NCBI GenBank assembly: GCA_008632985.1
Contig: QPGO01000096.1
Coordinates: 1 to 64,000 of the forward strand
DNA length: 64,000 bases
From: Psammoneis japonica
Taxonomy: Eukaryota
Direction of reading: 5' to 3'
Numbering within the stretch: position 1 is the first letter of the stretch; each line of letters begins with the position of its first letter. The notes beneath the pieces are model-generated. The model saw only the letters and a program-made list of their open reading frames with translations, was not told the origin of the DNA and searched no databases. The translations under genes were made by a program, and so were the position numbers. Positions 1,440-64,000 of this stretch are shown one piece after another.

Positions 1440-2200
1440 AGCTCCAAAGGCAAGGGACAACACGCATTGCGGCAGGGCGTGCGGACATTTCAAGGAAGTG
1501 ACCGTTCGGACAGGAGGGAATGCTTCTTGCAGTTGCGAAGTGTTCATGAAGCAAGGATGGTGCCATGATGCCATCATCTTTAACTTGCTGGGGCTTGAGA
1601 TAACACCACCATCTGAGTGCCGAAACTTTGATGGCATTGGTTCTTGGGACAAGATCAAAAATGGATGGACGACAAAGTCAATGAGAGTGTGGCATTTGGT
1701 GCAGATGGTGAAGAGAACAATGCGCAAGCAACATGCACACATTTTGCTTTCCAGCAGTGGACCCAATGTTTGAAAGCCAATCTGTCATTGAAGCCATGCT
1801 GGTGCCATGGGTGCCAGAACTTCACACCGTTGCAGCACCAAAAACATTGCGCCTCATTCTGTTGCCGCCCGTCTGAGACCAACCAAAAATGAAGATTGCA
1901 AAGGTTGGGCAAACCTTGAGAGGAAAGGTCCTTCCCGGGGACATTGTCACAAAGGTGGGCAATGTTAAAATGTCATCAAGAAGCAGAGATGGAGCCCTCA
2001 TCCCTGGATGCCGGGGCTCAGGACATGCTTGAGATGCTTGAATGCTTCAAGAGAGAGCAAAAGATTGTGACATTTTTTGATGTGCTCAGTCAGCACAGAT
2101 GGAAAATGCTGCCACCCAATCGTTTGTTGTTTCGAACTGAACAAGAAACCAAAATGTGCGCCCATTTGCCGCAGCGAAACAAGGGCTGTCCAAAATTTTC
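1440..2200. mobile_element. TpA-depleted island A: degenerate transposon-like relic with SWIM-like zinc-finger remnant
   Basis: By eye, TA occurs only at about 1581, 1601 and 1966 in 760 bp. The + strand ORF 1498..1773 contains CSCEVFMKQGWCHD, spaced like a SWIM CxC...CxH finger of Mutator-like elements. Confidence 0.5.
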
Positions 2201-2546
2201 GACTTAACATCTCTGCTGGCAAAAGTTTCGAGTTACATAACCTTTGCATGTGTCAAGCAACAGTTGTGTAATGTTAAACCGCTTGCATTGCTCATGTGGA
2301 CGTTGTCCACCCCTCAAACTTTTCACCGTGCTTTCACCACGTGGTTTTGATTTACAACACGGTAAAGTGTTGACGTAGAATTCTACGTATTTTATGTACG
2401 GCATGCTGTGGTTTGAGAGTGCCTTTTCTCGCATCGGCGGCTGCCCTCGTGCTCATGCCGCACTCACAACACCGCATTGCGATAGGGTTCGAACAACAAT
2501 CATCACTCGTTCCCAACCCTTTCAACAAGCTCTAGAGTAGAGGCCC

Positions 2547-14150: not shown

Positions 14151-14519
14151 TACATAGCCATGCTCCCAGCCAGGTCGCGCAAGCAGTCTATCTCGGGCAG
14201 CGCATGGATGCGCGTCCTTTGTCCGTGCCCATCTTATGAATATCATCTACTTTAGATTTATGACAAAATGTGTTACTTCGACAAAGCCCATGCTATTTAG
14301 GCCTACTCTAGGGCCCTACGCTTCAAACATTCGAACGCACTTCGTCACCAACCGAAGTCAAATCTCCACTAGGCCTCACTAAATCAGACATCCCAAGATC
14401 GAAGACTGTCGAGAATGCAAGCAACGTGTCATTTACTAGTTCATCTCTCCAGTATTCTCTTCTTCACGAGCTACAAAAACAAAGCTACATAGTCTTCTGT
14501 GGCTCAGGGTAAACTCTAA

Positions 14520-16453
14520 TTAGCTGTCAAAACTTGGTGGTCTTGACCAAGGCTTTAGTTCGAGGTAATCTTCCTCTTGAGCAAGGGACGCTGCCTTCCA
14601 GTCGTTGCGAAACAAAAGAACAGGGCGCTGCCATCGATCTTGAACAATCATAATACCAAACAGCTTACCGTCAGCATCTGCCTTGTCTACTGCGTCCCAT
14701 CCTCCATCTGCCCACCTCGCTATACTGTACCCGAGTGGTTCCATTATGCTCTCAACGCCATACTCATTTTCTAGACGAGCTTGAACAACTTCGAATTGCA
14801 ACTGTCCAACTGCTGCCAGAATCAGAGGACCACCACCATCATCATTCCGTTGTCGTAGCGCCTGCACGGCACCCTCATCGAGCAACTGGTCCAAGCCTTT
14901 GCGAAAAGCTTTATAGTCTGACGGATTGGGGCTGCGAATGTAAGAAAATTTCTCAGGACTGAATGAAGGAATGCCCGGAAACGCAACCTTGGAGTTACCC
15001 GTGAAGAGAGTGTCACCAATGGCAAAATTACCGGGATTGTTAATGCCAATCACGTCTAGTTGAGTTGCAAGGAGGTATTGCCAAACAAAATTGTGAGAAC
15101 CCATAGATACAAGGTATCAACTTGTGACATGAAATCAGAATTTACCTCCAGGGTAGGCAATCTCGACGGCACTACGGTCATTTCCAAACAAGGCTGTGCT
15201 TGAGCTAGGTTGTACTTTTTCCCACCCTTGGATCTGGAATGTCCCACCTTCATTCCCTTTTCATAAACCCCAGATACAATGCGTACATAAGCTAGTCGAT
15301 CTCGGTGCTTTGGGTCTAGATTTGCCTGTGTTTTGAAAATGAATCCCGTAAACTCTTCATGCTGCGGAGGCACTAGCTCTTCTTCAATTTTCTCTTCTGC
15401 TTCTTGTTTCTTCTTTTTCGAGGGTGCATCTGCTTTGAGCGAAGCCAATCTGCCCACGGGTTTCGTTCCCATGTCACAAAATTTGTCGAGAAACAATTGC
15501 ACACCAAAGTTTGTCATGGCAGAACCAAAGAACAAAGGACTCTGAGTAGCAGCCATAACCCGGTCCATATCCAGGGGGTTTAACAATTCCGTCAAGAGTT
15601 CTGCGTCTTCGTATAGTTTGTCATACAGTTCCTCGTCATCGATTAGCTCCTTGAGCTTTTCCTCGTCGTCCAACGGAACTTGGATCACTTCGGCTTTTCC
15701 TCCACGCTTGGTTGGCTTTTGATAAATGTGAACAATATTTTCGAGACGATCCAGCACTCCCTTGAAGCGGTCTCCATCGCCAATGGGCCAAAGAACGGGA
15801 TGCGTCTCCAAGCCGAATTCAGCTTCAATCTGGTCCATAATTTCGCATGGTGTCAGTGCCGGTCTATCTAATTTGTTGACAAAAGTAAAGAGCGGCAGAT
15901 TGCGCATACGACAAACCTCAAAGAGTTTGCGTGTCTGCGGTTCCAATCCCTTGGCTCCATCCAACAACATGACTGCATTGTCTGCTGCAGCCAGAGCGCG
16001 GTACGTATCCTCCGAGAAATCCTGATGGCCTGGAGTGTCCAAGATGTTGACCCGAAGTCCATTATAGTCAAAGTTCATGACTGTGCTCGAAATACTAATT
16101 CCACGTTCCTTTTCCATCTCCATGAAATCGGACGCTGTTGCTCGTTGTTCCGCCTTTTGCCGAACGGCACCCGCCTGTTGCAAGGCCCCTCCGTACAGCA
16201 ACAACTTTTCAGTCATTGTGGTTTTTCCCGAATCAGGGTGACTTATAATTGCCAAATTACGGCGGCGCTCAATTTCATTTGTCGGAGCTTGAAAGGTGGG
16301 TGCAGCGTCAGCGGCACTGCTCTGCAAGGCCGTTCTCGATGACGACAATTGGGATGTGCATGTGAAGGCACAGGTTCTCGTAACGAGACTGAAAAGTGTG
16401 ACTGTCAGTACGAAAAGGAAAATCGCATGATTATTTCGACCTAGCTCTGACAT
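14520..16453 (-). CDS. prfC: Peptide chain release factor 3, plastid-targeted
   Basis: Motifs RRRNLAIISHPDSGKTTMTEKLLLYGGA, DTPGHQDFSEDTYR, NKLD and AVGQLQFEVV. Signal peptide ending TCA-F. Intron 15056..15145; 1-bp frameshift near 15195. Confidence 0.93.
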
Positions 16454-16969
16454 GTTCAAACACAAATACCCTCTCAGCCACTTGCCAAACAAATTTCTTT
16501 GAGAGTGGTGAGGTTGTGCTTTTGTTCTTCGCGTCGGAGGGAGTTTTGTGGCTTGGTGGCACTTTCCTGTAGAATCCACATCTGAATAGTACCTGTCGTA
16601 GAGCCCGTACTCAACACACGTACGTGTGACTTACGTCATTAGTACGAACGTCCATCCGCCGACCGCAATCTGCGCAACGGCGCAACGCCGCGGCACGCAC
16701 AACTGCATCCATCCTCAAATCCGACACTGACATTGAACATGACCTGATCGGTAAACAATCACCTGAATAGTCCAGAGAAAATTAGGTAGGCTACTAGCTG
16801 ACACTTGATTCTACTCGCTTAGGGTTCTCTTCAGTCTCTGTGACTGGAAAAGGAAATCGGAGTTCTAGCGTTTCTTTTTTCCAAGCGGAGCATATCGTGC
16901 GAGATCAACAACTTCTGCCTGGTCGCAAAGCGAACTTTTCCGCTGCAAACTTCCAACGTCGGAAAGACC

Positions 16970-24614: not shown

Positions 24615-25873
24615 ATGCCGTCAGAGACACCTCTCAAGAAAAGTCAAGGGTCATCCTTGCTATACAAATTGGCAGTACAAGAAAAATGGGTAGACGTACA
24701 AGAACGTGTGTTGGACGTCCCAGAGGAGGCTCAGTACACACACCCAATTGATAATACCACTCCCCTTCATGCTGCGATTCAGGCTCATAATTCTGGCTCT
24801 ACTTCTACAAGTGTGCGTGAAGAACGGCTCGCTGCTATAGGGGCTCTCATTGCTGCGTATCCAAATGCCGCTTGTGTTAGAACGCGTGACACGGGAGATT
24901 CACCGCTCGCACTAGCTTGCATTACAGCGGATGATAACCATCAGGTTTTGCAAGAGGACGAAACGATTATCAGAATGATATTGGATCACAAGCCAGAGTC
25001 TATCAAGCTCTTGACGGCTGACGGATACTCACCGGTCGATCTACACATTATGTCTTATTCCGAGATAATGAGGCTTCGCAGTCTGTTTGATCCTGGTGTA
25101 GGTGCCGGAAACGTAGATACGCGACGACATCAATCTTGAAGCTTTTGTTGAAACATTTTGAATATAAAGATGATGGCAAGACAAGAATCATTTCGAGGCA
25201 GTTGGAGTTGTTGTTTGATTGCAATTCGCTGGAAATTCTTGAGAATATCGCTTTGGAAGAAGCGGAAGCATCATCCTCCAAGCTACAAGCACGTCGACTA
25301 GCGAGGTCTCGCCATGCTTTCGAAGGATCCAGCGTGAGTGGTGGATCTGTTTACTCGGCGGCATCTACTCACTTAAAATCCTTTTGGGTCTGGGAATGGG
25401 CGACACTCCTCATCATGAGCTACATTGAGAAAACAAAGACAGAACAGACTTACAACACAGTAGGTTCGTCAAGCAGTATCATGCACGCTGCTGCGCAGGT
25501 GCCGGATTGTCCGCTTCCGTTTCTCATCATGGCAATGAGGGCATATCCAGAAGATGTCCGAACACCCGACCCAAAGACTGGCAACTATCCCTTGCATTAT
25601 GTTGCATCTTGGGAAGATTCGTCTTCTCGTAGTGACGAAACGGAAGAATATCACTCGTCTTTGGCATGCCGCAAGTCCATGGCGCTTAGTGCGTTGATCT
25701 CGGAATACCCTGATGCGACGCACTACAAAAATAAAAAGGGACAGACGCCAATGACTCTTGCGCTAGTCACTGGAACACCGTGGGAGTGCGGCATGAAGAA
25801 ATTGACGGCTCAAACAAGCAGTCATCAGAACATGGCAATACACGCAAATTTAACCGACAACAGCATTGGCTAG
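24615..25873 (+). CDS. Ankyrin-repeat-like protein, paralogue of the 19987..22323 gene
   Basis: Shares in order DxTTxLHxA, PLAxAC, WVWxW, CPLP, GNxPLHxVASW, RKxMAxSAL and QTPxxLA..GTxW. Frameshift near 25125. Confidence 0.75.
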
Positions 25874-26489
25874 CAATTTGTGTGTGGCAGGATGAATGAT
25901 ACCATGTACCAACTAATGATGGATTGCGAAAATTGAATTCGGGAATCGTGGGCCGCTGCAACAACTCGCATTTTGCTCCACGCAAACGTGCAGGGGGGTC
26001 GGACGTGTTGCACAATGGACATAGGCAGGAAACAATAGAGAGAGAATGAGACCAGGGGCATTTTATTAAATATGGGGGTCAGACAAGAGAACGTGAAGAG
26101 GGGCATGTTCTCTTAGGCAGAGCTATCGAATCTAGTTCAACGTCTAATTACCGATGAACTGAACAAAGACAACATCTCATCGTGCACGACACTACCAGTA
26201 TGATGCTACAATCTAAGGTAGACTCATTTTGCCATAGCCAGCTCTCCTCCATTCTTTTTCTAAAGCTTTCTAATACACTACTTTAAAAGGTAACAGCAAG
26301 CCAAATGACGATACATTCCTGTTCCACATTTTGTTGAAGGAACGTAAGGCGGGGCGGGACCGCTGCGATGGATCTACATGCGGTGGTCTAATTTAAAATA
26401 GCTCGTACTTCCCACACTTCACCGTGTTATTTTGACCTGCTGCCCGGCCGCATGATGTGTTCGTCAAGCCCTCATCAGGGCCATTAGAC

Positions 26490-29400
26490 CGTTTGCAAGA
26501 GCTGCACATTTGATGCTTCAAATGCCACTTGTCCCCCTGCACCCGGTTGTCAGGCTGACAAAACTGCTGATTTATGCTGAAATCGGCCGGCGTGTGTGAG
26601 ACGCAACTTTTTGGGACCCATCATCTGACAAGCGGCACTTGATTTTGCTGACTGTTTGCATGTCTGCATTTGCTGAGCCAAACAACATGCACATGTGGCC
26701 ACAGTCATTGTTGGTGCATTCTGTGATGACTTGCATTTGTGTGGACAAAGCTCGCCACCCATCTCTGGCTCTGAAATTTTCTGTGTTGGCAAACACACAC
26801 ATCATGTTGGCAAGATTTGTCCTTTTTTCAAAGAGTCACAAGCTCTCAAGAAGCAGACTGCAGTGTGCAGATCCATCCTCAACACCAGTCAGAAAAGTGT
26901 CATTTTAAGAGAATTTGGCAACCACACATGTGTTCACAGCCAGCTCCCAAAGACTTTGTGACCACATGTGGCCTTGTGGCTAATTTCAAGCAACTCTCGT
27001 TAATCAAAAGAAGCGCCATGCTTTGTCACAGGAAGCAGAGTTCCTGCACTCCCTCTGACATGAGATGCTGCTGCAGTTCTTGGCATTTCTTCCTTTTGTT
27101 GCCTTCTGCAACATGCTTGTTGACATGTTGGGTGACAATGTCCATGGCTCCTGCAAAGAGAGAAGCTGACCATCACTCAGAATGACCAGACAGCAAGTGA
27201 CGGCACAACCAAGAAATTTGAAAAAGAGGCAAAAATGAGAAGAATGCAAAGCTCTGAGTGGCAGTGAGAGAATGTTGACAAATGCCAGAGTGCAAGAATG
27301 AGCTGGCAAGTTTGTTCCTGTTCCCCCCGCAGCACGTTGATCTCAGTCAGTTGAGTGCAACACCAACCAGTTGCCATTTTTCAGGAAACAAGCCATGCAA
27401 GAATGCTGCCAGGAGGACAAACCATGATTGCTGTGGGATGAACCCAGCACTTGGCCATTTGGTGCTGTGCAAACAATGCTCAGATTGGATTTTTGCACAC
27501 AGAGAAGAAAGATGAAACAAAAACTCAGTTTGCTGGCTGCCAATTTGTTGCTGCCAGGACAAGCAGGCAGATGCTGTTGAGACTGGCTGGAGAGCCCCAC
27601 TCGTTTGATCCAAGTGGTCTCCAATGCAAGAAATCCAATCTTGCCAAACTGCAGCCCATGGCAATGATCCTCTCAACTGCAAAGGCAAGCCTTGGATCAC
27701 CTTGCCCTCTGTGTTGTTTGCTTGATTCTTCCATCCATGTCCCTCTCATGTGTTTGCAAGCAATGGCAGGTTGCTTTCCACACCTGAGTTGCTCCTTGCA
27801 TGTGTCCACACAACCAAAACCCACTTTTTTAATGCAGGATCCTCTTTTTGCCAAATCAGACAGCAAACAGAGAGGACACAAAAAATGTGGAGCTTGTCAC
27901 CATTTTGCTTTGCAATGTCGGCTCAGCTTCACCACGAAAAATGTGCGCACTTGCACTTGGCTGATTTTCACATGGTGAAGTGCTGCAAAAAAGAGGGAGT
28001 GCTGTCTTGAGTTCTTGGCAGCTGGTGGAGCTTTTGGTGCTGGACTTTTTGGCTGGAAAATTCTCTGCTTTTCTTCCACAAAAGCACCTGGCAAATTGCT
28101 GGGTGTGGCACCATCAACAGCCGGCATTTCTCTGTTGTCTGTCTGTTGTCTTTTTGAGCAAGCATTCTGCCACAGTGGGTCATTTTCTTTGCAATGTGGC
28201 CTCAGCTTCACCACAAAAAATGTGCGCACTTGCACTTGGCTGACTTTCACATGGTGAAGTGCTGCAAAAATGAGGGAGTGCTGTTTTCTGAGTTCTTGGC
28301 AGCTGGAGCTTTTGGTGCTGTGGTTTCACAAACAGACTGACACTCCCAGCTGGCTTCTTCTTTGAGTGAGGAAAGTGGCTCCTGACTTTTTGGCTGGAAA
28401 ATTCTCTGCTTTTCTTCTGCAAAAGCACCTGGCAAATTGCTGTGTGTGTCACCATCAACAGCCAGCATTTCTCTGTTGTCTGTCTGTTGTCTTTTTGAGC
28501 AAGCATTCTGCCACAGCAGGCTGTGCTGGATGCAACGCCTTGGTGGAGGTGGAGGCAGTTTTCACCATGGGAAAATTGCACAAAAACAACCTGCTTTCAG
28601 CAGCTGCTTGATCACAAACAAAGTGTGGGAACTGGTCCTTTGGGGGTTGGGGGGGCACTGACCACTGGCTTCATTTTTGGGGGGGGGGGGAGAAGGGCAG
28701 ATGCGGAGATGTGTGCACCACACGGATGTGAGCACACGTGTGTGCGAGGGCTTTGTGGCAGGGAAGGAATGGTGGTGTGAGGGTGCAATGGGGAGAAAAC
28801 CTCAAATGACCATGATGCAAAGAGGAAGAAGCCATGCCTTGTGCTCTCATCAATGGCATGGCTGTCCTGCATGGCAGCACAGCATTGCTGCATCAACATG
28901 GCACCAGGAGGGTGGAGAGCGATGACTTCAGGGTCTGTTGCAAAAACTCACTTTGGGCAGTGGATGCAAATGGACACAAATTTCATTGTTGTTTTTGTTG
29001 TTGCTGCTGCTGTTTGTCACATGTCAGGTGTTTTGAAGCAAAGCTTGGAGCAGGTGCCACAATCAAGTTTGCTGTTGAAATGTTGGCCTGTGCAGCAGTT
29101 GGCTGACAAGCACTGGCTGGCAGCAAAGAGTGGGACAAGCACCAGAATTTTAGCCCATCAATCAACCATCAAAACACCCAAAAGACAAAAAACCCTGCCA
29201 TCAAGTTGAGCATGCCACCTCAGTTGGCGCCCATCAAGAAGCACCTGCCTTCTTTGAAGGTCAAAGCAATGACAGTGTTGTGAATGGCCAAGTGTTCATG
29301 GTGTGCTGGCTGTGGCAGCTGTGATGTTTGATGTGCAATGCAGAGACAGCAATGTTCAGTGAGATTGGGAAGTGTGCTTCTTGTGAGACAATCTTTCAGT

Positions 29401-32400
29401 CCATCAGAGTGCATTTGTCCTGGCTCTGTGATGAGAACATCATTTGGCGCAGCAGTTTTTTTGCCCCCCCCCTTTTGCCGGGACTCTCAGTGGAGTTGCA
29501 GAGGGCCACCACCAGAGTGGTTTGTCAAAATGATTCAATCAACCTGCAAAGGGATCACCTGAGGCACAAAGATGTGGCAGCTGACATCACAAAGTCAATG
29601 TGCATGCAGAAGCACACTGTTCTGGGCTCCCCGTTGGACATGGGAAAGACACCACTGCTTTGGCTGGTCAAGAAGGAGGGTTGTTGCAACAAAATGCACA
29701 TTGAAGCAAAGGTGCTGCATTGCTGTCTTGCAAATCTTGTCAAAGTGGAGAAAGTTGTGGCCAAACTGGGAAAGCTTGGAATCCAGGATGATGAAGACAG
29801 CACCAGCAGGAGGACAGAAAGGGTGCTTTTGAGAGATGCAATGCACATGCCATGACACATGGATTGTCTTGGGTGAGTGCTGGAGTTTTTGGCAACACAT
29901 CATGAAGCACTTGCCTGTTGTTTGCAGCAAAACACAAAACACTCTGTGTCATCATTGCTGCCACCTGTGATCTCTCCACCCACCACACTTCCCCCCCACA
30001 GTTTGTCACCTTGGAACATCACCAGCAACAAACAGCCATCCAGGAAAAAGAAGTTGAACAACTCTGCCAGATGCGTGTCACTGAAAACAAATGAAAATGC
30101 AGACTTTTCATCTGGATGACCTTGAAAAACTGAGCAAGCTTGGAGACAACCAGCATCACATTGATGAGGTTCTCTCCCCCCAAATGACACCTTGCTGGGA
30201 CCTCAAGGGGTTTGTGCATTGCGTCTGTCCAGTGCAATTGCCAGCACTGTTGCAGCTCCCCCAAAGCACCACCAAAGATGACCTTTTCCATGACAAAAAG
30301 GGAAAGTGCCATTTGCAAACCCACAAACTGAAAAAGAGCATTGCCAGTTGCCAGTTGGCTGCAAGGTTGAGGCAAAGGAACACATGACATGGAGAATCAG
30401 CAGTGTGACCTTGATGGGTTGGCCACAGAAGCACAGAAGATGGAAGCTCTCAATCAAAGTGATGAGACTGTGCCAGGGAATCCACCTGAAGCAGAGCAGC
30501 ACAGCTCTCTGACAACCGATGGCCAGCTTCATTTGCAAGCTTTGAGGGACAACAGCAAAACCAACACCATGTGCATTTGCCAAAAGCAGCGATTTGTTCA
30601 CAGCGCCAGCAAAGCACCCTCTCCAGCTCCCATCACACAACACACTCACAGAAGGCTGGATCTTTAAGTGCCTCAGCATCACAGGCATGTGGTGGCCTCT
30701 GCTGCCTGCACTGGAAGCTGGCGGGTCAACGAGTTGAGATGGTGTCATGGCTGATGGTGGCATGTCTTTGCACCGCTTTGTGAGTCAGAGTGGCATGCTC
30801 TCGCTCTGTCAGTTTGAGCAGCAACAGGAGCATCAAAGAAGGGGCTGCAAACAATGCCACTTGAAATTGTCTGGGTGGACATCTGATCATGGTGGCAGCA
30901 CCTCTCCACCGGCCAGGCATGCTCTGGACAGTTGTCATTGGAGTGCAGCTGCATTGGGAGCTCAGCTCATCTCACATTTGCTGCGAGAATCTTGCCCCCA
31001 TCCCCAAAGGGTTTCCTGGTGAAAAGTCATCAAAATTTCCTTTGTTGGTCTTTTGCTCTTTGCAAGACACTTGTTCCCTCAGTGGGGCACTCTTCCCTCC
31101 CTGCATTGTTTCAACAATGGGCTCCTTTGCTCATTTTCCTTGCGCCAAGGGCAGTGTTGGTGGTGCTGTGGTGTGTGGGGTGCTGTCCAAAGATGCCTTT
31201 GCCTTTTCATCTTTTCTTTGCTTGTCCTCAAATTTGGCAGTCTTTGTCAATGTCTGAAGCAAAGTGCTGGGCCTCACTTTCACAGGACCCAAGAGCCCAA
31301 AAACAGCTGGGCATGAGGAGGGGCAAACTCCTGCCAACAAAGGGTCTTTGACTGGCCCAGCTTGCAGCACAATCTGTGGTTGTAAATTTGTCATCAGGAT
31401 CCATCTCTTGAATGCCAGCAAGACAGTCCTCTGAGAAATTGGCTGCTGCATCTGTTTGGCATGCCCTTCCAGTGTCTGTGTGTCAAATGGTGGGGTTCCT
31501 CTGGTTTGGTGTTGTTGGAGCCTGTCTTTTCATTGCCATTGTCCAGTTCATTGATGCTTTCAACCTCATCTCTGGACAGGCTGTCATCAGAATCTGCATG
31601 TGATTGTCGTTGCCTGACTCCAAAATGTGCTCGATGCTTTGCAAACTGTTCTTCGCCAATGATCTGAGGCGCGCCCTCCTGTTGCTGATGTCATGACCAT
31701 CCAACGCACTTGCTGGAACATCAGCTGCACAGAAAAAGTCATGTTGGTGTTTCTTCTTTCTCCTTTTGCAGCTCATCATCAAATCATGGTGACTTGTCTT
31801 CAAGATTTTCTTCCTTTCAGTGGCTCCAAGGCAGAGAAATTGACCCACAATTTTCTCATTTTGTGCATTTGAAACACCCAGCCCAATCTTGTGTTTGTGC
31901 TCCAACAGCTCTTGGTTGTGTTTCCAGCACAACAGCTGTGAGCAGCAAAGAAACAACACAGGAGGAGCCAGCTCCCTGTTTCTTCATCACCCGCTGCTCA
32001 ATCTTCAAAAAATTCATTGGGCAAAAATCATCTTTTGAGTGTTGTTGCAACTCATTTGCTGGGTCAGAGACTATGGGAAAATCAAGCAAGTGTCATTTTT
32101 GGCATGCTTTTAGCTCATGTGCAGCTGGAGCATGTTGCCACTGAATGATGATCCATCCTCAATTTCATGACCAACGGCGGCCATGGCTCTTGATTGGCAG
32201 AGCATCAGCGTCAAAAGCCAAAGGGGCCTGCTGGAGCATGCGCCAAAGTGGCCGAAGTCGATGAGCCTGTGAGGACCACACAATGTGGATGACAAGAAAG
32301 ATGACAGTGAGATGCCAATGCCAGTGTGGGCTGTGCGTCATGTGCCAGAGCCATTCAAAATCCTCACAAAAGCCTGCTGCACTTTGAACTTGTGGCAATC

Positions 32401-32530
32401 CTCTGTTGGCCGGCACAGACAATGCGAACCCTTGCATGCAATCAACCAAGCACTACACACCCGAAGCAACTGACACGAGAGCCCTCCTGCTCAGGGGTGG
32501 GCAATCGCAGTGAACGCATCGCACCTCCGC
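26490..32530. mobile_element. TpA/CpG-depleted island C: hypermutated transposon-like relic
   Basis: By eye, only 4 TA in 27003-32070 (27830, 29151, 30665, 31383). The minus strand near 26670-26730 gives ECTNNDCGHMCMLF, like a Ulp1-type protease QxNxxDCG motif. Contains an internal tandem duplication. Confidence 0.6.
27901..28517. repeat. Imperfect tandem duplication (about 280-340 bp unit) inside island C
   Basis: 27901 cattttgctttgcaatgtcggctcagcttcaccacgaaaaatgtgcgcac... recurs at 28181 as cattttctttgcaatgtggcctcagcttcaccacaaaaaatgtgcgcac...; both units end ...gagcaagcattctgccacag. Confidence 0.9.
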
Positions 32531-32666
32531 ACCCATCTACCGGTACGGTATCCATAACTCCATCACCCATTGAATGATGAACAGCAGCAACAAATCGCTC
32601 CTCGTATTCTGACGGCCCTATTCCGTTCAAAGTGGTTTCCAATCGAATATGATAGTCTTGTCGACA

Positions 32667-33689
32667 ATGAGAATATCTATCCTTAATTTTCTAGCTGTGT
32701 TCTTCCTTGCACAATTTCCCTGCGTGATATCCTGGACAACCACCAGTCGGCACAGAGTTTGTCGGATTCCAATAAGGCTTGCCTCGTCAACGATGAACAA
32801 CCCTCAAACAATGTCGAACACTGAAAGAGACAGTGCTATTGATAACTCAAAATCAGTTGCATCATTAGAAAAGCAGAAACGCGTGCGCAAACTGCAAGGC
32901 AAGCTCCTCAAGAAAATGCGCAATACCTGCCGAGACTACGACATGCTTCAAGACGGTGATCACCTCATGGTTTGTGTATCGGGTGGAAAGGATTCTGCCG
33001 TACTTTTGTATCTACTCAAAATTTTGCAGGAACAGCTTCCTGTCAAATTTGAAATGACAATTGTGCACGTGGACCAGAAACAACCTGGCTATGATGGACG
33101 AGAGCTGGTGGAGTGGCTTGACAATGACATGAAAGTTCGGTACAAGATTGTTGAAGAGGACACTTACTCCGTGGTGAAAGACAAGACTAGTGAAGGGAAG
33201 TCTTATTGTACCGTGTGTAGTCGACTGCGTCGTGGCATTCTCTATTCAACGGCCTTGGAGCTTGGGTGCAATAAGATTTGTCTAGGTCATCATGCGGATG
33301 ACTGTTTGGAAACGCTCTTTCTAAACATGATGCATGGCGGTCAGCTCAAGGGTATGCCAGCCCGTTATACCAGTAAGCGAGGAAACTTGGGTGTTCTTCG
33401 ACCTCTTATGGAGTGTTTTGAAGATGACATTGCTGAGTATGCAGCACTGCAAGAGTTTCCAATCCTCCCGTGTAACTTGTGCAAAAATCAGCCCGACTTG
33501 CACCGGCCGCAAGTCAAGCTTTTGCTGCAAACGCTCGAGGCCACTTTCACTCCGACGGCCAAGCAAAATATGCTTCGATCTTTATCAGATATTCGGCCAA
33601 GCCACCTGCTCGACCAATCTTTACGTGAACAGTGTGGAATGGATCCAATTACTGGCGAGGAGACTTCCGACGACCACGAACCACTGTAA
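32667..33689 (+). CDS. ttcA: tRNA 2-thiocytidine(32) synthetase TtcA, with N-terminal targeting peptide
   Basis: SGGKDS PP-loop, CTVCSRLRRGILY, LGHHADD, MPA...RPL and PILPCNLC. Hydrophobic signal peptide ending VIS-W, followed by a S/T/R-rich transit-like stretch. Confidence 0.9.
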   Translation: MRISILNFLAVFFLAQFPCVISWTTTSRHRVCRIPIRLASSTMNNPQTMSNTERDSAIDNSKSVASLEKQKRVRKLQGKLLKKMRNTCRDYDMLQDGDHLMVCVSGGKDSAVLLYLLKILQEQLPVKFEMTIVHVDQKQPGYDGRELVEWLDNDMKVRYKIVEEDTYSVVKDKTSEGKSYCTVCSRLRRGILYSTALELGCNKICLGHHADDCLETLFLNMMHGGQLKGMPARYTSKRGNLGVLRPLMECFEDDIAEYAALQEFPILPCNLCKNQPDLHRPQVKLLLQTLEATFTPTAKQNMLRSLSDIRPSHLLDQSLREQCGMDPITGEETSDDHEPL

Positions 33690-34329
33690 AAGGCGTCGTC
33701 GGACAATGCAATGATTTGATGATCCACGCTTGCAATTGCTGCTCTCATAACGATACAATTTCGAAATAAGACATGGAAGTCATTGTCTTGCTGCATCTGA
33801 TATCAAATCTCTACTCATGGCCTACACATGTATCTTAATTGCAGAAGTCTGTTCCAAGGCAGTCTTTGCAGTTTTAGTGCTTGAAGTGTAATATTAGCTT
33901 GTTTGCGCTGTCCGTCTGAATGAAAAGTATCCATGGATGACATTTCGCCCGATGTTGCTCTCATCGTTGCCCCGAAGAATCAATCGCAATAACGAAAAAA
34001 GTGAGCATGAAAGTCCAACGATGAAACTATCTTCCTATCCGTACGGATGTCTGTGTGTATTTGTCGTAGGCCCTGTTCAGCAGAAGTAACTCATTGGCCG
34101 ACTCTCGCAAAGGCTCAGCATTGTCTTCACCACCCTCCTCCAATTCGCGGACAGCATTGGCATCGCCAGGATCCAATGAAACTGCATTCTCTGCATTCTG
34201 AGTCGCAACGACATTCTTTGAAATCATCAATGGCAGCACGAGGGAAGAAGACCCCCCAAGGCCGTTCCACCTGTACGACAAATCCAGGATGGTCACAACA
34301 GACCCTCCTGCTCTTTTCGTATGACAGGT

Positions 34330-35355
34330 GCAACACAATTTGCAGCAAAACAAATTCCGCTGTCAAGAAAAACCTGCGCATCCTCGCAACCCTCGCGGAC
34401 TGCTGCTCTGACTGACGGATCCAGGATGCTTCTAGCGAGTGCTCAAAGCGGCACAGATTTCGACTGGTTTTGGCTCAGACCCACATGTTTTCTCATCCCC
34501 CCCCCCTTTTTTTTGTTCCGGCATCGCACGGGAAAGGACGGCAGTCCAAAACAGCATTTGGGTCTGCCAGCTGGAGATGTTTCTTGGCGTCGCAGGTCCA
34601 CGCACTTAAATGTTGAGATTGTTTGCTGTCACGGTAAAATCGCTGCACGACTCACTCAGCAGTTGCTGCAATGGGGCTCACTCAGGTGAAAGAAGAGGAG
34701 CTCGACTCTGGCTCAAAGAGCAGGTTCTTTGCAACAGCACGTGACGACGACACAAATGCTCAACTTTGTGCGAGCGCTTCGGCCTCCACTGCAGGCGGGC
34801 TTCTTCTTCCCTCTTTTAGCTTCTGCTTGCGTTGACATGAGCAGTTGCTTCAGTCGATGAACAATGTTTTTGGAAGGCGTGTGATGCTTTCAGCTCACAT
34901 CTCCCGCTTTCTTCTGGTGATGATTTCGTCGCTGTCATCTCAGACGACGGGTGTTTTTGCTTGCAGCTCTGGGGTGCATGCGGTTCCGAAGAAGACCAGT
35001 CGCTCTGCACACCAGAACAACCAACAACACGAGCTGTCCTCGACAATGGCCTCATCGTTGCATGAGCCATCACACACTTCCGCAATCACCGCAAGGTCAG
35101 ATCTCTTCAGAGAACGAGGAATCGCACAGCTTCTCGCCCCTCCGATCGGAACTGTCACATCGTTTGCCTTGTTGCTCATTCTGCGACGGAGTTCTTGCTG
35201 TGATTCTTGCTTGGGACACGCATGCGTGTGCAGATGATGATGATGAACATGACCTCTCCTGCTTTTTGTTAGATCAATTGTTTCTCTTTTGGGGCCGCCA
35301 TTCTTCTTTGAAGTTTCATCGACGGCCTGGAGTGGGCACTCACAACAACGCACTC
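34330..35355. pseudogene. Island D: TpA-depleted but CpG-retaining relic of an unidentified minus-strand gene or element
   Basis: By eye, 5 TA in about 1 kb (34433, 34607, 34635, 34817, 35270) while CG is frequent. Broken, Tyr-free minus-strand ORFs. Confidence 0.5.
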
Positions 35356-35447
35356 TAGCAGCCAGCTAGCCCAAGCTCTCTAGCTACTAGCTAGTAGCCA
35401 CAGCTCTACCGGTGCTGTAGGCCTCTCTAGCTAGCTAGCTAGAGCTA
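35355..35447. repeat. CTAG/TAGC-rich low-complexity tract
   Basis: ctagcagccagctagcccaagctctctagctactagctagtagcc...ctctagctagctagctagagctat, immediately adjacent to island D. Confidence 0.8.
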
Positions 35448-35864
35448 TCGCGGTGTTCAGATCGGTGTTCGGTTCCCTTTCAAAAAGGTTTCCATTCGAT
35501 GGAACCATCATGTAGTAAGAAATCGGTGATTGGTTGTTAAATAAAATGCATCAATACGATATTTTTATTTAGGCCTTCTATTCTTCTTCGCTTTTAAGTA
35601 ATCACTTTAGTACGACGAACACGTTTTGTCGTCGCGACTTCGCAAAAAGTTCAGACTCTGGTTTTGCTGCGCGCTTTTCTCCCTTCTCCCTCGACGGACT
35701 CTTCAACATTTAGGTTACAGGTTACAGTCTACCTTACTCCGAAGCTCCGCGTCAGGAAGAAACGGGCACGAGGAGAGGCTGTCAACTCATCAGCATTGCG
35801 TTGGTCATGAGCTTCCCCCATGTCGGCTTGGGGGGGCTTCCAGGGGTTTACGGTTGCGCAGACG

Positions 35865-38800
35865 ATGGCATCGATCGAAGCGCCTTCTCACAATAACGGC
35901 AGAAGCTGTGGTTGCTCTGCTCGGAGCCGAGCCTGCGTCATTATATTGACTTATACTGTGCTCTGGGTTTTGCACTATCTACTTGTTCACTTCTCTTCCA
36001 CCGGAAGCCAGCTTGGTAACATTAAGCCGGCACTTCTTATTCTCGCAGTTGAAATGCTCAAATTCGCCTTTGCTGGCGGATTGTTGGCTGCAAACACCAA
36101 AGCTCAGATGGGTACCGTTAAGACTTTACTCAACCGGCTTCCAATTATGCAGTCCCTTCTGAAAGCTTATCTACCTATTGCGGCTATCTACGCAATATAC
36201 AACAACCTAATGATCGTCAACCTCCGATACTTCGATCCTACGACATACCTTGTGCTCTCCAGTTCTCGTCTTGTGATGACCTCCTTTGTGTGGCAATGGG
36301 TCTTCCAACAAAAGGTCACGCCAGTTCATTGTGGATCTTTGACCTTAATCACAATTGGAGTGCTCATCAAAGGGTTGGTTCCTGCAATGATCAATCATGA
36401 AGAGGACCGGGAGCAGTTTACACTACAGCACTCATGCCACGTATTGTTGGTTCTGGCCCAAATGGTTCTTTCCGTCGTGGGGTCTGTTTACAATGAAAAG
36501 ATTTTAAAGGAACGTGCGAACAAAGACCCGCACTTGCACAATGCTTGCCTTTATTTGAACTCAATCGTAATCAATGCTGGCATCGTGTTTTTCACTGTGC
36601 CGTCGACAACGGCCATTGCAGACATGATCAAGGCTACGTGCTCCTCTGCCAGTGGTCTGGGGATCATTCTCACGCTTGCTTCCGTGGGAGTTGTCACGTC
36701 TTTGTTTCTCCGTTATGTTGACTCTGTCACCAAGGCTGTCGCATCAGCAGCTGAGACTGCGCTTACCGCGGTCATTGGGCACTTTGTCTTTGGTTATGAA
36801 ATGACCCCATTGGCTTCAGTATCGGTTGTCCTCATCTTCCTCGGTTCATACTTGTATGCACGACCTCAGCAGTCATGTTTACACAGCAACCGACGCGGTG
36901 CACTCAAAAGTGGAATTCGGAAGGCTAGACTCTGGTATATGGGCGTGCTCGTTGTCTCAGCCCACGTTGCTTGCATCGTGAGGACATCTATTCACATGAA
37001 TTCTCGATTTTTACCAGCTAGCAAAGTGCCGACTACCGTTATGGAGAAGGAGCAATGGCTTGGATTATTGTCTGATTCGGTTGTTTCTCCAAACGAAATG
37101 CCCTCATGCAGAAACCCTAAACTTGCGAAAGAGGTAGATCCTAGAGGGCACAAGTCGGCAGCGTTTGAAGCTGCGATTCAAGCGTTTCAAGAGATCGACG
37201 CAGATTATTTTCTTACCGCCGGAACTCTTCTCGGCTTTGTTCGTGAGTGCCGAAATTTTGATAAAGACGTCGACTTTGTTGTATCTTTGGACTGGCTTAA
37301 GAAAGAGAACAACAGTAAAGTACTGGATCATGCGTTTCATACTAAAGGCTTCAAAAAGAAAAAAGTCTTTCCGGGTGTCGATGGCACTGAGAAATCGCTG
37401 GGCGGCGAGATAGTGTTCCTCCTGAACTCCGCCAGAGTCGATCTCTTCGTTGGCACCTACAGCCCAAGCTATTACGTAAACGGGGTATCGCTGTTCAATT
37501 GGACCTTGGCATGCCCCAAACCAATGTCTAGTGTTGAAGACTTTATCTACGGAAACTTGACCGTCCGCGTGCCCATGCCCTACCATGACGTTCTATTGGC
37601 ATTGTACGGTGATGACTACATGGTTCCAAAAATTCGATTTGGGGAACAGTGGGAAGATAAGGCCTTTAGGTATATTAGCGAGGGTCGCTGTGTGGTTGTA
37701 CGAGAGGGAGACAAGCCTGAATTAAACACAACGGAAGTTGCAAGTCGCAATGGACGTGGGATCGTTGCGTGTCTGACCGATCGAGCATCTGTGGCACATG
37801 CATTAGCTTTAGTTGATGGTATGAGCGAATTGGTCGCTCCACCCAGATTGGAACTCTACCACATTGGTGCACTCAGCTATTTCCTAAAGGCTCAGTTTGA
37901 GAAACACTCTTTTGTGACCGTTACGGATCTGACGAGTGGCCCACTAAAGAGCTTGCTAAGTAAGGCTGACAAGACAGACGAAGAGCTCGCTACCCACTGT
38001 CATCGTGCCGCCATTAGAATGAGCAAGCTCCGATACATTGTACTTTTGCGGCCGTCAATCATCTTCCTTCAAGATCCTCTGAACTTGGTGCGCACTACGG
38101 AATTCTATCACATGTATCATCTTCGTAACTCGTCTTGTCCTGTTGGGGCATATGTCACAGCTACGGATTGGGAACTGGCAGAGAGTATAAGGCCTTTGAC
38201 TAAAGGCTTGGCTTCTGATGCGCTCTGTCTGGTTCGAGCTGCATACAATCATTCCACCCCCAGTATTGAATCGAAATCAAGCTCCCAGAGCCTCGCCTTT
38301 GTACATGAAGCAGCCCACCGTATTGGCCTATGGGCGTACCCTTCCATTGAGAATCCTTTGTGGATAAGACACCATATGGATACAGAGAAGTCTCACATGG
38401 TTCTTAATACAAACAGAAAAAATGGTACCGTGTTCCTTCCTCAGGAGTATCAAGATTCGTTACTTTCAAGCTGGCGTCGGTATTTGGACGCAACAGCCAC
38501 CATTATGATGGACAGACCAATAGACTGGGTTGCCTTCGATGGAGGCTTCCACTTCAATGTAGGCACATTAAACTCCATTGCGGCAGCGAAGAAATCCACT
38601 ACTCTTGGTTCTTCTATCGTGAACATTGATCTGGCGCTTACCAAGGACAGGAGGCTGGTCGCCATTCATAACGACAACTCTTTCTGTCCATTTGAATATC
38701 AAGGAAGCTCGCTGTCCAAGCCAGTTTCGTCCATGAGGTTTGTTGAAGCAAGAAAGCATACAAATCCTTGTATACCTGAAGACATGTCTCGTCGATGGCT

Positions 38801-61310: not shown

Positions 61311-61454
61311 GGTTGAGGTTTGAACAGGTATGACTATCGTACCGGCGGTGAGATCATCGGGCTCATGTCAATTTTTGCGGATTTGAAGCGTTGATGCGGG
61401 GCGCGTTGAATTTGAAATTTGATAATAATTTGTATTCGTAGCAATGGATTTTAT

Positions 61455-64000
61455 GTCAAAAGTCACACAACGGAAAAAAATGAAGGAGCTGCCAAACGGT
61501 GGGCGGCCACGTGGTCCCTTGAAGAAGAGAGGAGGACGCCGAGGAAGGAACAGGGCCCTAGAGCGAGAAGGACCAACTCTTCGGTCCTCACCAACACAAA
61601 ATTCAACAAAACCTGCGGTGATCTGTGCACCACCAAAAAACCCGGGCTGAGAGGAGACGTTGCATGTGGCTGGCATTTAAAAACATCGGCACAGGAGATT
61701 TGCCAACAACAAAGAAGAAAAGACCACAAGAACAAGAGCATTTTCAGAAATGTCCAAGAAAAGAGCATTGGTGTGTTTTGCATGAACAAAACTCACTGGT
61801 TCTGGAGAACCACACCGCAGCGCATGACAAATGACCTGTGCAAGATGCTCAACATCTGTGGGCTCTCTGGGAACTGCCACCCAATGTCTCTGCTGCCTGC
61901 AAAACACATGCACAATGAGCGCTCATTCTCCTGCTGCCAACCAGGATGCATGATGATCATGGCTGTCAAGCAAGCCAGCCACCAAGTTGTTTCCAAAGGC
62001 AACAATCCACCCGGCATTGGATGCTGGGCTTGGGCATGACTTTCTTGAGGGGAAGGTGTGAGCGATGCTGTGCATCATCACAGCAGCATGTTGGCCAGCC
62101 ACCCTGCATGAGGCCAGCAATTGGGCGCCAGGACAGTCCACACCAAACAATGATGCCATCTGGAAGACAATGATGAAAATCACTGTCCAAGAGCAGCTTT
62201 GCTCAAGGATGTTGCACAAGAGATGTTGCCAAACTGGATCCAGAGGGTGGCAACCAAGCAATCCTCACTGGCAATGTCAACAAGGAGTGTGTTTGCTCTG
62301 AAGAAACCACCAAGGCATTTGAAGGAGCAGTGCAGCCAAAATTTTTTTGTCAGAGAGATGCAGCAAAGACACACTCCTTGCCATGTGAGCTGCAGGATCA
62401 GAGCCCATCAATGAAGTGTGGCCACAAGAGGCATTGCCGTCAAACAAGGCAGCTTTCTCCCAATCATCAATGGAGTCAGAGGGTCAGAAAACTGTGCAGC
62501 CTGCTGGATTGACATTTCTTGCCAGACTGCTTTTGGCACTCTGCCACCTGAAGTGGAAAGTGACCCAGCCCCGTGCACAAAACTCAACAATCTGAAAGTT
62601 GTGGACAGATTGCCTTCAACAAGCTTCACAAGGAACGTGCACTGGAGCACAATCTCTCCACAGCATCAGGGACAAAAAACAAGTGTGACCTGTCCTCCAA
62701 CCAAGCCACAGACCAACAAGTGGGAAGCACTCAACTGTTGTCAAGCAGACAGTGTGTGGAAAGCCATTGGCAAATCCAGAAAATTGTGAATGGGTGGAAG
62801 GCCATGGTCTCCCAAACTCAAACATGCACCCAAGAGAATTGATCTGCATCTGCCTCTTGCCAGGAAGAAGCCAGCATCAGCTCCAGCAGAGCATGCACAT
62901 TTTGTTGGGGTGGTTCTGGTGTGTTTGACTGTGCAAGGGGGGGTGGAGACAGTGACAATTTTTTTGCCACAGATGGATGGCTGGCTGCTGCAATTGTTCA
63001 CAAGCTGAATCATGCTGCAGCACTTCATCATTCTTTCATGTGCACGAGACTTCAAAGGTGCCAACAGAGACAGAGGCTCCCAAAATGACATTTGTGGCAA
63101 GCATCTGTCAGATGGTCTCACCCCATTGGGCATCATGTGCATCAACATGGGATGGCTCAGGAGCATGTCCAAAAGGTTGGAGATTGCCATGACCAGCTCA
63201 GCAATGTCAAATTCATCCATGATGCACATGTCAAACCCAAAATGCCACAAGCCCAATTGTCTTGTGTTGCAGCACAATTTGGAGTGTGCAAGACTGCAGA
63301 GACATCAAAAGAGACAGCCCCCCCAAGATGGCAGCATTTCCTGCAAGCATCTGTTGGATGGTCTCAGGTGAGCATGACATTGCCAAAACCAGCACACCAA
63401 CAACATGGGATGATCCAGTGTGTCCAAACAAAGGTGCAAGATTGCCATGACCAGTGGCGAGGCGGGCAACTCAAAATCCATTTGGTTGTCATGCCATTGT
63501 GCATCGTGTGTTGCGCCATTGTTTGTGATGGCATGTTTTTGTGGAGAGCATGAAAAAGAACCAACCAATGGTGGCATGTGTGCCTTCATGAACCAAGGAC
63601 AAGTGCCAGCCCAAAAACCAAAAACATGGTGAAGGCAGAGAGCACCTGCATTTTAGAAACCTTGATTGTGACAAGAGATGCGCCAAAGTGCTTGCCCCAT
63701 GTGGAGCCACCTGGTGTGAACCTTTGATTGATGAAACATGAGGTGGATGCACAGATGGCTGGTGTCAACAGGGCAACAGTTGGAGGAACAGGCCACTGCC
63801 ACTGACGCAGGAGATGGCTTTGAGGAGGAGAGAGCAGTTTTGGTGGGGTCTGTTTGACAAGCACTGTTGCTGACAGCCAACACATCTCCAGCAAAAGTGT
63901 TTGCATCATCATTCAGTGATGGGACAGAGTGATGGAATTGTGCTGCAGGCATGACTGATCAAGAGGAGCTGTGGGAGAAGCTGTTGCTGCAGAAGGAGAA
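61455..64000. mobile_element. TpA/CpG-depleted island F (runs off the window end)
   Basis: By eye, only 2 TA in 61562-64000 (61678, 63654) and about 10 CG in 62100-64000. Dense Tyr-free ORFs in all frames. Confidence 0.55.

What the first reader, a model, noticed from the sequence alone, without database searches (positions are those of the whole stretch)
26490..32530. Targeted TpA-erasing hypermutation ('anti-RIP') in sharply bounded islands: candidate undescribed genome-defence system
Seen: TA falls from roughly 2-3 per 60-bp line in genes to 4 in about 5.1 kb (27003-32070), 5 in about 3.6 kb (10570-14150) and 2 in about 2.4 kb (61562-64000). AT, AA and TT stay common and TG/CA is abundant. 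TAA/TAG stops and Tyr codons vanish, which explains the dense, Tyr-free, Cys/His/Gln-rich ORFs in all six frames. Established: 5mC decay explains CpG->TpG/CpA but not TpA loss, and fungal RIP creates TpA rather than removing it. Inference: A->G transitions at 5'-TA on both strands, confined to transposon-like DNA. Candidate mechanisms are a TadA-like DNA adenine deaminase (TadA favours a 5' U/T), a mutagenic base modification at TpA, or error-prone repair linked to methylation. I know of no named system for this.
Basis: partly seen in the sequence, partly recalled or inferred. Interest (0 to 1): 0.93.

Follow-up and report, generated by a model that had tools for sequence, protein, structure and literature searches.

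The report
TpA- and CpG-erased DNA islands in a diatom
A diatom chromosome segment holds several sharply bounded non-coding blocks from which nearly every TA and most CG steps have been converted to TG/CA; no described mutation process that I could find accounts for the TA loss.

Summary
Three blocks (10020-14151, 26486-32537, 61452-64000) and two islets (1601-2205, 34087-35270) have TpA at about 1% of expectation. In the three blocks CpG is at about 17%.

TG+CA gained (84/kb) equals TA+CG lost (81.5/kb), equally on both strands. Converting TA and CG to TG/CA in the window's own flanking DNA reproduces the island k-mer spectrum (r 0.96-0.98 against 0.72-0.75).

Contigs of a public run, most likely short reads, carry the same sequence at single-copy depth and bridge both borders.

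TA loss and CG loss are separable. Block margins and one islet have lost TA but kept CpG.

The few surviving TAs sit mostly in TTAA or TTA/TAA contexts (p about 1e-4). Surviving CGs favour GCGC. Both point to context-dependent mutation processes.

With 0.9 TA/kb beside 230 TG+CA/kb, the TA loss must be ongoing or very recent.

Not supported: the "transposon-like" label. The blocks are non-coding, mostly single-copy and unrelated to each other. No unmutated homologue was available, so the TA-to-TG/CA direction is inferred, and the enzyme is unknown.

My literature searches found no description of this.

The parts
26486..32537 (.). Island 2, the flagged one. TA-depleted domain with 11 TA in 6052 bp. 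The CpG-depleted core is about 26634-32174. The margins 26486-26633 and 32175-32537 are TA-free but keep CpG.
   Evidence: read-contig support
10020..14151 (.). Island 1. TA-depleted domain with a core at 10570-13820. The left edge is graded (10020-10567) and the right edge is sharp at 14151.
61452..64000 (.). Island 3. TA-depleted domain that runs off the end of the window. CpG is kept up to about 61687.
1601..2205 (.). Islet with one TA in 604 bp, CpG 22-29/kb and TG+CA 188-219/kb.
34087..35270 (.). Islet that is TA-poor (longest gap 453 bp) with normal CpG (48-57/kb). It shows TA loss without CG loss. No period-3 signal.
27901..28516 (+). Tandem duplication inside island 2 (about 27901-28175 and 28181-28516). 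The copies differ by two CG-versus-CA sites. They also differ by two adjacent TG-versus-CA doublets: 28077-78 CA against 28409-10 TG, and 28176-77 TG against 28517-18 CA. The second doublet lies at the edge of the repeat.
26367..26533 (.). Short multi-copy segment straddling the left border of island 2. Summed word depth is 1521 against about 55, and many partly fitting contigs lie here.
32442..32500 (.). Short multi-copy segment near the right border of island 2 (summed depth 363 in its bin).

Best explanation
The blocks are non-coding nuclear DNA of a diatom that has undergone, in place, two separable context-specific transition processes. Both end in TG/CA.

(1) C to T at CpG. This is most simply deamination of 5-methylcytosine in a methylated core. 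It is most efficient at TCGA and least at GCGC.

(2) A:T to G:C at TpA, on both strands. It goes almost to completion, reaches 150-460 bp beyond the CpG-depleted core, and also acts alone in one islet. It is hindered when the TA is flanked by T on the 5' side and A on the 3' side (TTAA).

The TA process must be still active or only just stopped. Its borders are set by something sharp, such as the limits of a sequence element or a silenced domain.

Shown: the composition, its bounds, the mass balance, strand symmetry, the separability of the two losses, the context bias of survivors, and the reality of the sequence.

Inferred: the direction of change, in-place action, current activity, methylation of the core, and any enzyme.

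My most likely chemistry for the TA step is enzymatic deamination of adenine to hypoxanthine at 5'-TA. It would be fixed by replication or by thymine excision opposite hypoxanthine. Oxidation of thymine at TpA by a TET/JBP-type enzyme is second. Neither is tested.
For: - Mass balance: the islands lose 36.5 TA plus 45.0 CG, 81.5/kb in all, and gain 84.0 TG+CA/kb. TG (110.9/kb) is about equal to CA (119.4/kb).
- Simulation: converting 98% of TA and 82% of CG to TG/CA in the window's own non-island DNA raises the correlation with island k-mer frequencies from 0.75/0.745/0.72 to 0.98/0.97/0.96 for k = 2, 3, 4.
- Adjacent non-coding DNA (4616 bp) has 47 TA/kb, so this is not a genome-wide bias.
- Separability: the five margins together (1536 bp) have TA at 5.9/kb, 16% of background, but CG at 42.3/kb, 77% of background. 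The islet 34087-35270 is TA-poor with normal CG.
- Surviving TAs are not random. 7 of 24 are in TTAA against 89 of 1913 in the background. 19 of 24 are in TTA or TAA against 749 of 1913. Both give p about 8e-5. TAs newly made from island TG/CA would be TTAA in only 6.8% of cases.
- Surviving CGs: GCGC is 3.6-fold over-represented and TCGA is at 0.36-fold, chi-square p 1.5e-6.
- Recency: 0.9 TA/kb beside 230 TG+CA/kb means less than about 0.4% transition divergence can have accumulated without erasure. This is my own arithmetic.
- Current CpG mutability: 7 of the 14 transitions listed between the window and the X1 contigs inside the island are CG versus TG/CA.
- The duplicated copies inside the island show TG-versus-CA doublets, as expected if an ancestral TA or CG resolved independently in each copy.
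- A real sequence, not a modified base misread: contigs run 1.5-2 kb at flank-level depth. Neither would be possible if each strand read differently at every TA.
Against: - No unmutated homologue was found, so no TA-to-TG/CA substitution has been seen directly. The doublets could all descend from CG.
- None of the 18 listed allelic differences in the island is a TA versus TG/CA difference. Only 40 of 86 differences were displayed.
- Borders are sharp to within tens of bases at 4 of 5 edges. That fits an inserted element with its own composition better than a spreading chromatin state.
- Some residual misfit to the model remains. The GC dinucleotide is 75.9/kb against 60.5 predicted, and GA/TC is 60 against 69.
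- Only one 64-kb window was available. No genome, methylation, chromatin or RNA data could be obtained.
- 0 of 2290 600-bp windows in 80 environmental loci around homologues of a flanking gene show the pattern. It is therefore not general among relatives, and it cannot be cross-checked elsewhere.
Confidence: 0.55

Rival explanations
1. Inherited composition. The blocks are insertions of mobile, viral or otherwise foreign DNA that was already TA-free when it arrived, for example because its own replication cycle erases TA. Only the CpG loss in the methylated interior happened in place.
For: Borders are sharp at 4 of 5 edges. CpG depletion begins 150-460 bp inside the TA-free domain, as expected if methylation fades towards the ends of an element. 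Short multi-copy segments lie at both borders of island 2. The islets could be short unmethylated elements of the same kind.
Against: There are no terminal repeats, target-site duplications or coding remnants. The blocks are unrelated to each other and island 2 is single-copy. The k-mer spectrum is that of local host DNA after the two conversions. An 82% CpG loss needs far more time than the less than 0.4% divergence that the near-absence of TA allows, unless TA erasure continues in place. No known element is natively TA-free, as far as I recall; this was not searched separately.
Confidence: 0.17
2. A by-product of repair or replication in a special chromatin state, not a dedicated system. One example is error-prone patch repair around deaminated 5mC, in the manner of non-canonical mismatch repair with polymerase eta, which is mutagenic at WA motifs. 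That comparison is recalled, not checked.
For: TA loss surrounds the CpG-depleted cores and extends a few hundred bases beyond them, a patch-repair scale. CpG sites are mutating now.
Against: AA/TT is not depleted (80.1/kb in the islands against 78.4/kb), although polymerase eta also targets AA. The islet 34087-35270 lost TA without any CpG loss nearby. The edges are sharp, not graded. Near-complete erasure, more than 250-fold over the reverse rate, is far beyond known repair-associated biases.
Confidence: 0.13
3. Selection, not mutation. The blocks specify something, such as long non-coding RNAs that must avoid UpA-cutting nucleases or DNA that must avoid a TA-reading nuclease or transposase. 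TA-containing variants are then removed.
For: TA is kept out very effectively although 23% of positions could produce it by one transition. The surviving TAs are context-biased.
Against: The blocks have about six-fold more allelic differences than the flanking genic DNA: 32 in 5170 bases against 2 in 2076 (table 8). They contain an unconstrained-looking tandem duplication with indels and are unrelated in sequence. Selection on every one of about 40 sites per kb over 14 kb is implausibly costly. No Rfam family matches.
Confidence: 0.08
4. Sequencing or assembly artefact. Modified bases at TA and CG are misread as TG/CA.
For: Dense base modification is expected in silenced algal DNA. The library type of the supporting run is not on record, and the run may come from the same sample as the assembly.
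Against: Contigs of run X1 reproduce the TA-free sequence in 0.5-2 kb pieces at the same depth as the flanking genes and bridge both borders. Their statistics indicate short reads. A base misread on each strand would give conflicting TG and CA reads at every site, and both contig length and depth would collapse. X1 differs from the window at about 0.6% of island positions, so it is not a copy of the assembly.
Confidence: 0.03

Closest known systems
Repeat-induced point mutation (RIP) of Neurospora and other ascomycetes
   Same: Regional, saturating, dinucleotide-specific transition mutagenesis with sharp limits. It leaves non-coding wreckage full of one class of dinucleotide.
   Different: RIP changes C to T at CpA, so it destroys CpA/TpG, creates TpA and lowers G+C. 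Here TpA is destroyed, CpA/TpG is created and G+C is unchanged. RIP needs duplicated DNA, whereas these blocks are unique. The organism is a diatom.
TpCpG hypermutation of repeats in Pucciniomycotina (Horns et al. 2012, PMC3318451; abstract and passages read)
   Same: C to T at CpG with a preference for a 5' T. Here TCGA is the most depleted CpG context and GCGC the least.
   Different: That process is strictly TpCpG, acts in repeats, and has no TpA component. Here all CpG contexts are depleted and TA is erased as well.
CpG decay by deamination of 5-methylcytosine in methylated DNA (vertebrates, plants; diatom transposons are CpG-methylated by DNMT5, PMC9998398, passages read)
   Same: CpG O/E of 0.07-0.32 with matching TpG/CpA excess. 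CG versus TG/CA makes up half of the listed allelic transitions.
   Different: It does not touch TpA. TA loss is stronger than CG loss and occurs where CpG is intact.
A-to-I editing enzymes with a 5' U preference (ADAR hyper-editing; TadA/ADAT-derived mRNA editing in fungi). Recalled, not tested.
   Same: The net change is A to G next to a 5' T/U.
   Different: These enzymes act on RNA. A DNA footprint would need reverse transcription and would be confined to one strand. Here TG is about equal to CA, and there is no sign of a retro-element.
Aberrant base-excision repair of hypoxanthine:T by thymine-DNA glycosylase (Talhaoui et al. 2014, PMC4041421; abstract read)
   Same: A documented route that fixes a deaminated adenine as an A:T to G:C change in a dinucleotide-specific way.
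   Different: It is described for the TpG/CpA context, giving CpG, in mammals, and as a weak bias. It is not regional erasure of TpA.

Membership tests
RIP (ascomycete type) | TpA/ApT index raised (above about 0.89) and (CpA+TpG)/(ApC+GpT) lowered (below about 1.03). Thresholds are recalled. | tested here: not met
   From, TpA/ApT = 0.9/57.0 = 0.016 and (CpA+TpG)/(ApC+GpT) = 230.3/108.5 = 2.1. Both are at the opposite extreme.
RIP (ascomycete type) | Acts on duplicated sequence | tested here: not met
   No similarity between the blocks or to the rest of the window, even in the purine/pyrimidine alphabet. Island 2 is at single-copy depth apart from short edge segments. Older, now unrecognisable duplication cannot be excluded.
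RIP (ascomycete type) | Lowers G+C | tested here: not met
   G+C is 0.487 in the islands against 0.479 in the background.
RIP (ascomycete type) | Depends on a RID/DNMT4-type enzyme in a sexual phase | not testable with these tools
   No genome is held. DNMT4 relatives are reported in 31 of 60 diatoms with unknown function (PMC9998398).
5mC-deamination CpG decay | CpG deficit with an equal TpG/CpA excess | tested here: met
   The excess also has to absorb the lost TA.
5mC-deamination CpG decay | The DNA is CpG-methylated | not testable with these tools
   No methylation data. Indirect support: 7 of 14 listed allelic transitions are at CpG.
5mC-deamination CpG decay | Accounts for the whole pattern | tested here: not met
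   TA loss is not produced by it, and TA loss occurs where CpG is intact.
Pucciniomycotina TpCpG hypermutation | C to T restricted to TpCpG | tested here: not met
   All ten symmetrised CpG contexts are depleted. TCGA is only the most depleted.
Footprint of RNA A-to-I hyper-editing in a retro-copy | A to G on one strand only, in a reverse-transcribed element | tested here: not met
   TG 110.9/kb against CA 119.4/kb. No reverse transcriptase or other retro-element domain in the 150 of 155 ORFs scanned.
   Only short multi-copy segments at the edges of island 2.

The most novel reading that the evidence does not exclude
This diatom has a targeted DNA mutator that converts A:T to G:C specifically at TpA on both strands of chosen domains. 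Candidates are a natural DNA adenine deaminase or a thymine-modifying enzyme. It would work beside CpG methylation as a second, irreversible silencing layer. That would be a genome-defence chemistry with no known counterpart and the mirror image of fungal RIP.
Probability: 0.3. Interest if true: 0.95.

Novelty: new variant of a known kind. Interest (0 to 1): 0.82.

Why it matters
Regional hypermutation as genome defence is known only from fungi (RIP and RIP-like C-to-T), and from editing of retro-elements in animals.

A process that erases TpA would be a new mutational chemistry in a major group of marine primary producers. It would make TAA and TAG stops and tyrosine codons impossible in the affected DNA. 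It could also point to a natural enzyme with A:T to G:C activity on DNA and a two-base context, a kind of activity I know only from laboratory evolution (recalled; not established).

The pattern also matters for annotation. These blocks produce long spurious ORFs in all six frames, and they make up about 23% of this window.

Tried and rejected
- Whole-genome look-up: no genome is held for this window.
- tRNA and Rfam scans of the window and of the multi-copy left edge found nothing.
It was replaced by 150 of the 155 stop-free ORFs of 60 aa or more. The five left out lie in 63367-63958. The best hits were DUF6636 (E 2.6e-4) and DUF1067 (E 4.3e-4), both below their curated cut-offs and in Cys-rich junk-like ORFs. 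I treat them as compositional.
- Protein search with the ORF across the multi-copy left edge (26396-26620, minus strand): no candidate at all. The organism's own proteins seem absent from that database, since the best hit to a flanking gene is 81-86% identical. I therefore did not spend further protein searches on island ORFs.
- Exact 20-mer of the multi-copy edge in metagenome contigs: 0 matches.
- 80 environmental loci around homologues of the flanking RF3-type GTPase gene (497,551 bases; many are GC-rich non-diatom contigs): 0 of 2290 windows meet the island criterion, against 58 of 318 in the window. This does not show that the pattern is absent from other diatoms, because such contigs are mostly genic and short.
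- No RNA holder was listed among public runs. This says nothing about expression.
- Earlier notes of this scan: nothing on this genome or on this pattern in eukaryotes. The phage CA/TG cases listed there concern different biology.
- Literature searches found no description of regional TpA erasure in diatoms or elsewhere. Papers outside the held library could exist.
- TG-versus-CA imbalance along island 2 in 250-bp bins is only mildly over-dispersed. I drew no conclusion about strand-wise tracts.
- Joints with sides of 22-35 letters (for example 26440 to 31166) were disregarded as repeat-induced.
Full report
**What the window is.** The flanking genes are eukaryotic and almost intron-free. They include a nucleotide-sugar transporter, an amino-acid transporter, a PP-loop ATPase, an agmatine-deiminase-type enzyme, and NB-ARC and TPR proteins. 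The RF3-type GTPase ORF at 15056-16579 (minus strand) has its best matches, 81-86% identical, only among diatoms such as Attheya, Extubocellulus, Chaetoceros tenuissimus, Seminavis and Nitzschia. The window is therefore nuclear DNA of a diatom that is not itself in the protein database. No whole genome is held.

**The observation.** It is correct to the base.
- In 1-kb windows, three regions have TA O/E 0.00-0.08 and CG O/E 0.07-0.32. TG/CA O/E is 1.73-2.01 and G+C is unchanged. Elsewhere TA O/E is 0.21-0.74 and CG O/E is 0.53-1.32.
- The TA-poor domains are 10020-14151, 26486-32537 and 61452 to the window end. Two smaller islets lie at 1601-2205 and 34087-35270.
- Together they make up about 14.5 kb, 23% of the window.
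- Tyr all but disappears from six-frame translations (0.02% against 2.19%). C, W, Q and H rise 1.6-1.7 fold, and 533 of 549 stop triplets are TGA. This explains the crowd of overlapping ORFs.

**Is it an artefact?** I consider this largely excluded.
- One public run (X1) holds 83% of the sampled words of 25500-33500.
- Its contigs number 657,387 records with 140.7 M letters. That is typical of a short-read run, but the library type is not on record, so this is my inference.
- They cover island 2 in pieces of 1491, 2023, 175, 915 and 566 bases. Word depth is 51-63, the same as the flanking genes (51-58). Pieces bridge the left border (25500-26525) and the right border (32451-33500).
- They differ from the window at 32 of 5170 island positions, against 2 of 2076 flank positions. 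They therefore represent another haplotype or strain and not a copy of the assembly, and that haplotype is TA-free too.
- A modified base that polymerases misread would give conflicting TG and CA reads from the two strands at every site. Such contigs and depths could then not exist.

**What the blocks are.** They are non-coding.
- 150 of the 155 stop-free ORFs of 60 aa or more gave no credible Pfam match and no transposon or viral domain.
- The period-3 signal is at noise level (0.3-2.7) against 4-11 in genes.
- There are no tRNA or Rfam matches.
- The blocks share no similarity with each other or with the rest of the window. This holds even when purines and pyrimidines are collapsed to two letters, which would reveal copies hidden by saturating transitions: the best real score is 77.6 bits against 81.4 for the reversed control.
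- There are no terminal direct or inverted repeats.
- Island 2 is single-copy by depth, except for short segments at its borders. The 26301-26567 bin has summed depth 1521 and the 32442-32708 bin has 363.
- The label 'transposon-like' is therefore not supported. Very old or non-autonomous elements cannot be excluded.

**What happened to them.**
- Against the rest of the window, the island cores lose 36.5 TA and 45.0 CG per kb and gain 84.0 TG+CA per kb. TG (110.9) is about equal to CA (119.4).
- I applied exactly that change to the window's own non-island DNA: 98% of TA and 82% of CG, each going to TG or CA at random. The correlation with island k-mer frequencies rose from 0.75, 0.745 and 0.72 to 0.98, 0.97 and 0.96 for k = 2, 3 and 4. 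It also rose for words that contain neither TA nor CG.
- Non-coding DNA directly beside the blocks has 47 TA/kb and 52 CG/kb. The cause is therefore local.
- A tandem duplication inside island 2 differs at 14 substituted positions. Two are CG versus CA. Four form two adjacent TG-versus-CA doublets, one of them at the repeat's edge. Such doublets are what independent resolution of one ancestral TA or CG would leave. They cannot tell which of the two it was.

**Two processes, not one.**
- The TA-free domain is wider than the CpG-poor core at all five edges, by 148, 363, 459, 330 and 236 bases.
- These margins together have TA at 16% of background but CG at 77% of background. Their TG+CA excess matches.
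- The islet 34087-35270 has lost TA with normal CpG.
- TA loss is therefore not a side effect of CpG loss at the same sites.

**Context dependence.**
- Of the 24 TAs left in the three blocks, 7 are in TTAA (background 89 of 1913) and 19 are in TTA or TAA (background 749 of 1913). Both give p about 8e-5.
- None of the 24 is ATAB or GTAY (5 of the 16 flank contexts), which hold 36% of background TAs.
- TAs newly arising from island TG/CA would be TTAA in only 6.8% of cases.
- TTAA is the one context in which both strands present T-T-A. This fits an activity that acts on each strand and dislikes a T two bases upstream, or equivalently an A downstream.
- The 112 surviving CGs are enriched in GCGC (3.6 fold) and CCGG (1.9 fold) and depleted in TCGA (0.36 fold), p 1.5e-6.

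**Timing.**
- With 230 TG+CA per kb, each one transition away from TA, only 0.9 TA/kb is present. Unopposed transition divergence can therefore be at most about 0.4%. That is less than the 0.6% difference between the two haplotypes or strains compared.
- An 82% loss of CpG needs much longer than that.
- TA erasure must therefore be continuing or have stopped only very recently.
- CpG is mutating now: 7 of the 14 listed allelic transitions in the island are CG versus TG/CA. None of the 18 listed differences is TA versus TG/CA. With almost no substrate left this is not informative, and only 40 of 86 differences were displayed.

**Mechanism.**
- The CpG part is ordinary in kind. Diatom repeats are CpG-methylated, and DNMT5a loss removes that methylation in Phaeodactylum. 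RID-related DNMT4 enzymes of unknown function occur in 31 of 60 diatoms (PMC9998398, passages).
- For the TpA part I found no described process. A:T to G:C at a two-base palindrome, on both strands, regionally and to completion, suggests an enzyme.
- I rank adenine deamination to hypoxanthine first. It would be fixed by replication or by thymine excision opposite hypoxanthine, a route shown in vitro for human TDG in another context (PMC4041421, abstract).
- Oxidation of thymine at TpA comes second, and error-prone patch repair third.
- Patch repair by a polymerase-eta-like enzyme fits poorly. AA/TT is untouched, and TA loss occurs without CpG loss.
- None of these can be tested without the genome.

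**Rivals.**
- An inserted element that was already TA-free explains the sharp borders and the inward offset of CpG loss. It does not explain the host-like k-mer spectrum, the lack of any element features, or the timing conflict.
- Selection against TA is unlikely, given the six-fold higher diversity than in flanking genic DNA, the sloppy internal duplication, and the unrelated sequences.
- An artefact is largely excluded.

**Comparison with known systems.**
- The pattern behaves like RIP in being regional, saturating and dinucleotide-specific. It fails every compositional criterion of RIP and runs in the opposite direction: TpA/ApT is 0.016 and (CpA+TpG)/(ApC+GpT) is 2.1, both computed.
- Its CpG part resembles 5mC decay, and in its 5' T preference it resembles the TpCpG hypermutation of Pucciniomycotina (PMC3318451).
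- Eight literature searches and the notes of this scan gave no account of regional TpA erasure.
- In 80 environmental loci around homologues of a flanking gene, none of 2290 windows shows the pattern, against 58 of 318 here. It is not a general feature of such contigs, but that sample is short, genic and partly non-diatom.

**Verdict.**
- The pattern is real, extreme and reproducible, with an internally consistent mutational reading and measurable context rules.
- The direction of change, the targeting and the enzyme remain inferred from one window.

Noticed in passing
window 35340-35450: A dense cluster of CTAG-based palindromic words (ctagctagctagctag and variants) lies directly after the TA-poor islet, upstream of the 1552-aa ORF. 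Its nature is unknown; it could be a repeat end or a promoter element.
   Followed up: no
window 35820-40478 (+): A single 1552-aa ORF joins an N-terminal nucleotide-sugar transporter domain (E 1.3e-18) to a long C-terminal part. That part has a weak beta-lactamase-fold match (E 4e-4, below the Pfam cut-off).
   Followed up: no
window 46173-49508 (-): Adjacent ORFs carry an NB-ARC domain (48378-49508) and TPR repeats (46173-47609). Together they look like an NLR/STAND-type gene, possibly one gene split by an intron or a frame change.
   Followed up: no
window 26367-26533: A short dispersed repeat is present in roughly 25-30 copies by summed contig depth and straddles the TA-normal/TA-free border. 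Other copies diverge strongly just inside the TA-free side, mostly by transitions. This comes from the loose-end consensus lines, which have low agreement (0.71-0.78).
   Followed up: partly
window 26504-32461 against flanks 25500-26525 and 32451-33500: Differences between the window and the X1 contigs are about six times denser inside the island (32 in 5170 bases) than in the flanking genic DNA (2 in 2076) (table 8).
   Followed up: partly
window 28640-28695: Long G runs (G6, G7 and G12) inside island 2. A 2-base length difference at 28690 is seen in the run's contigs.
   Followed up: no
window 14520-16579 (-): The RF3-type GTPase ORF covers only about 79% of its homologues. The rest probably lies in the overlapping ORF 14520-15104, which suggests a short intron or a frame change near 15056-15104.
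   Followed up: no
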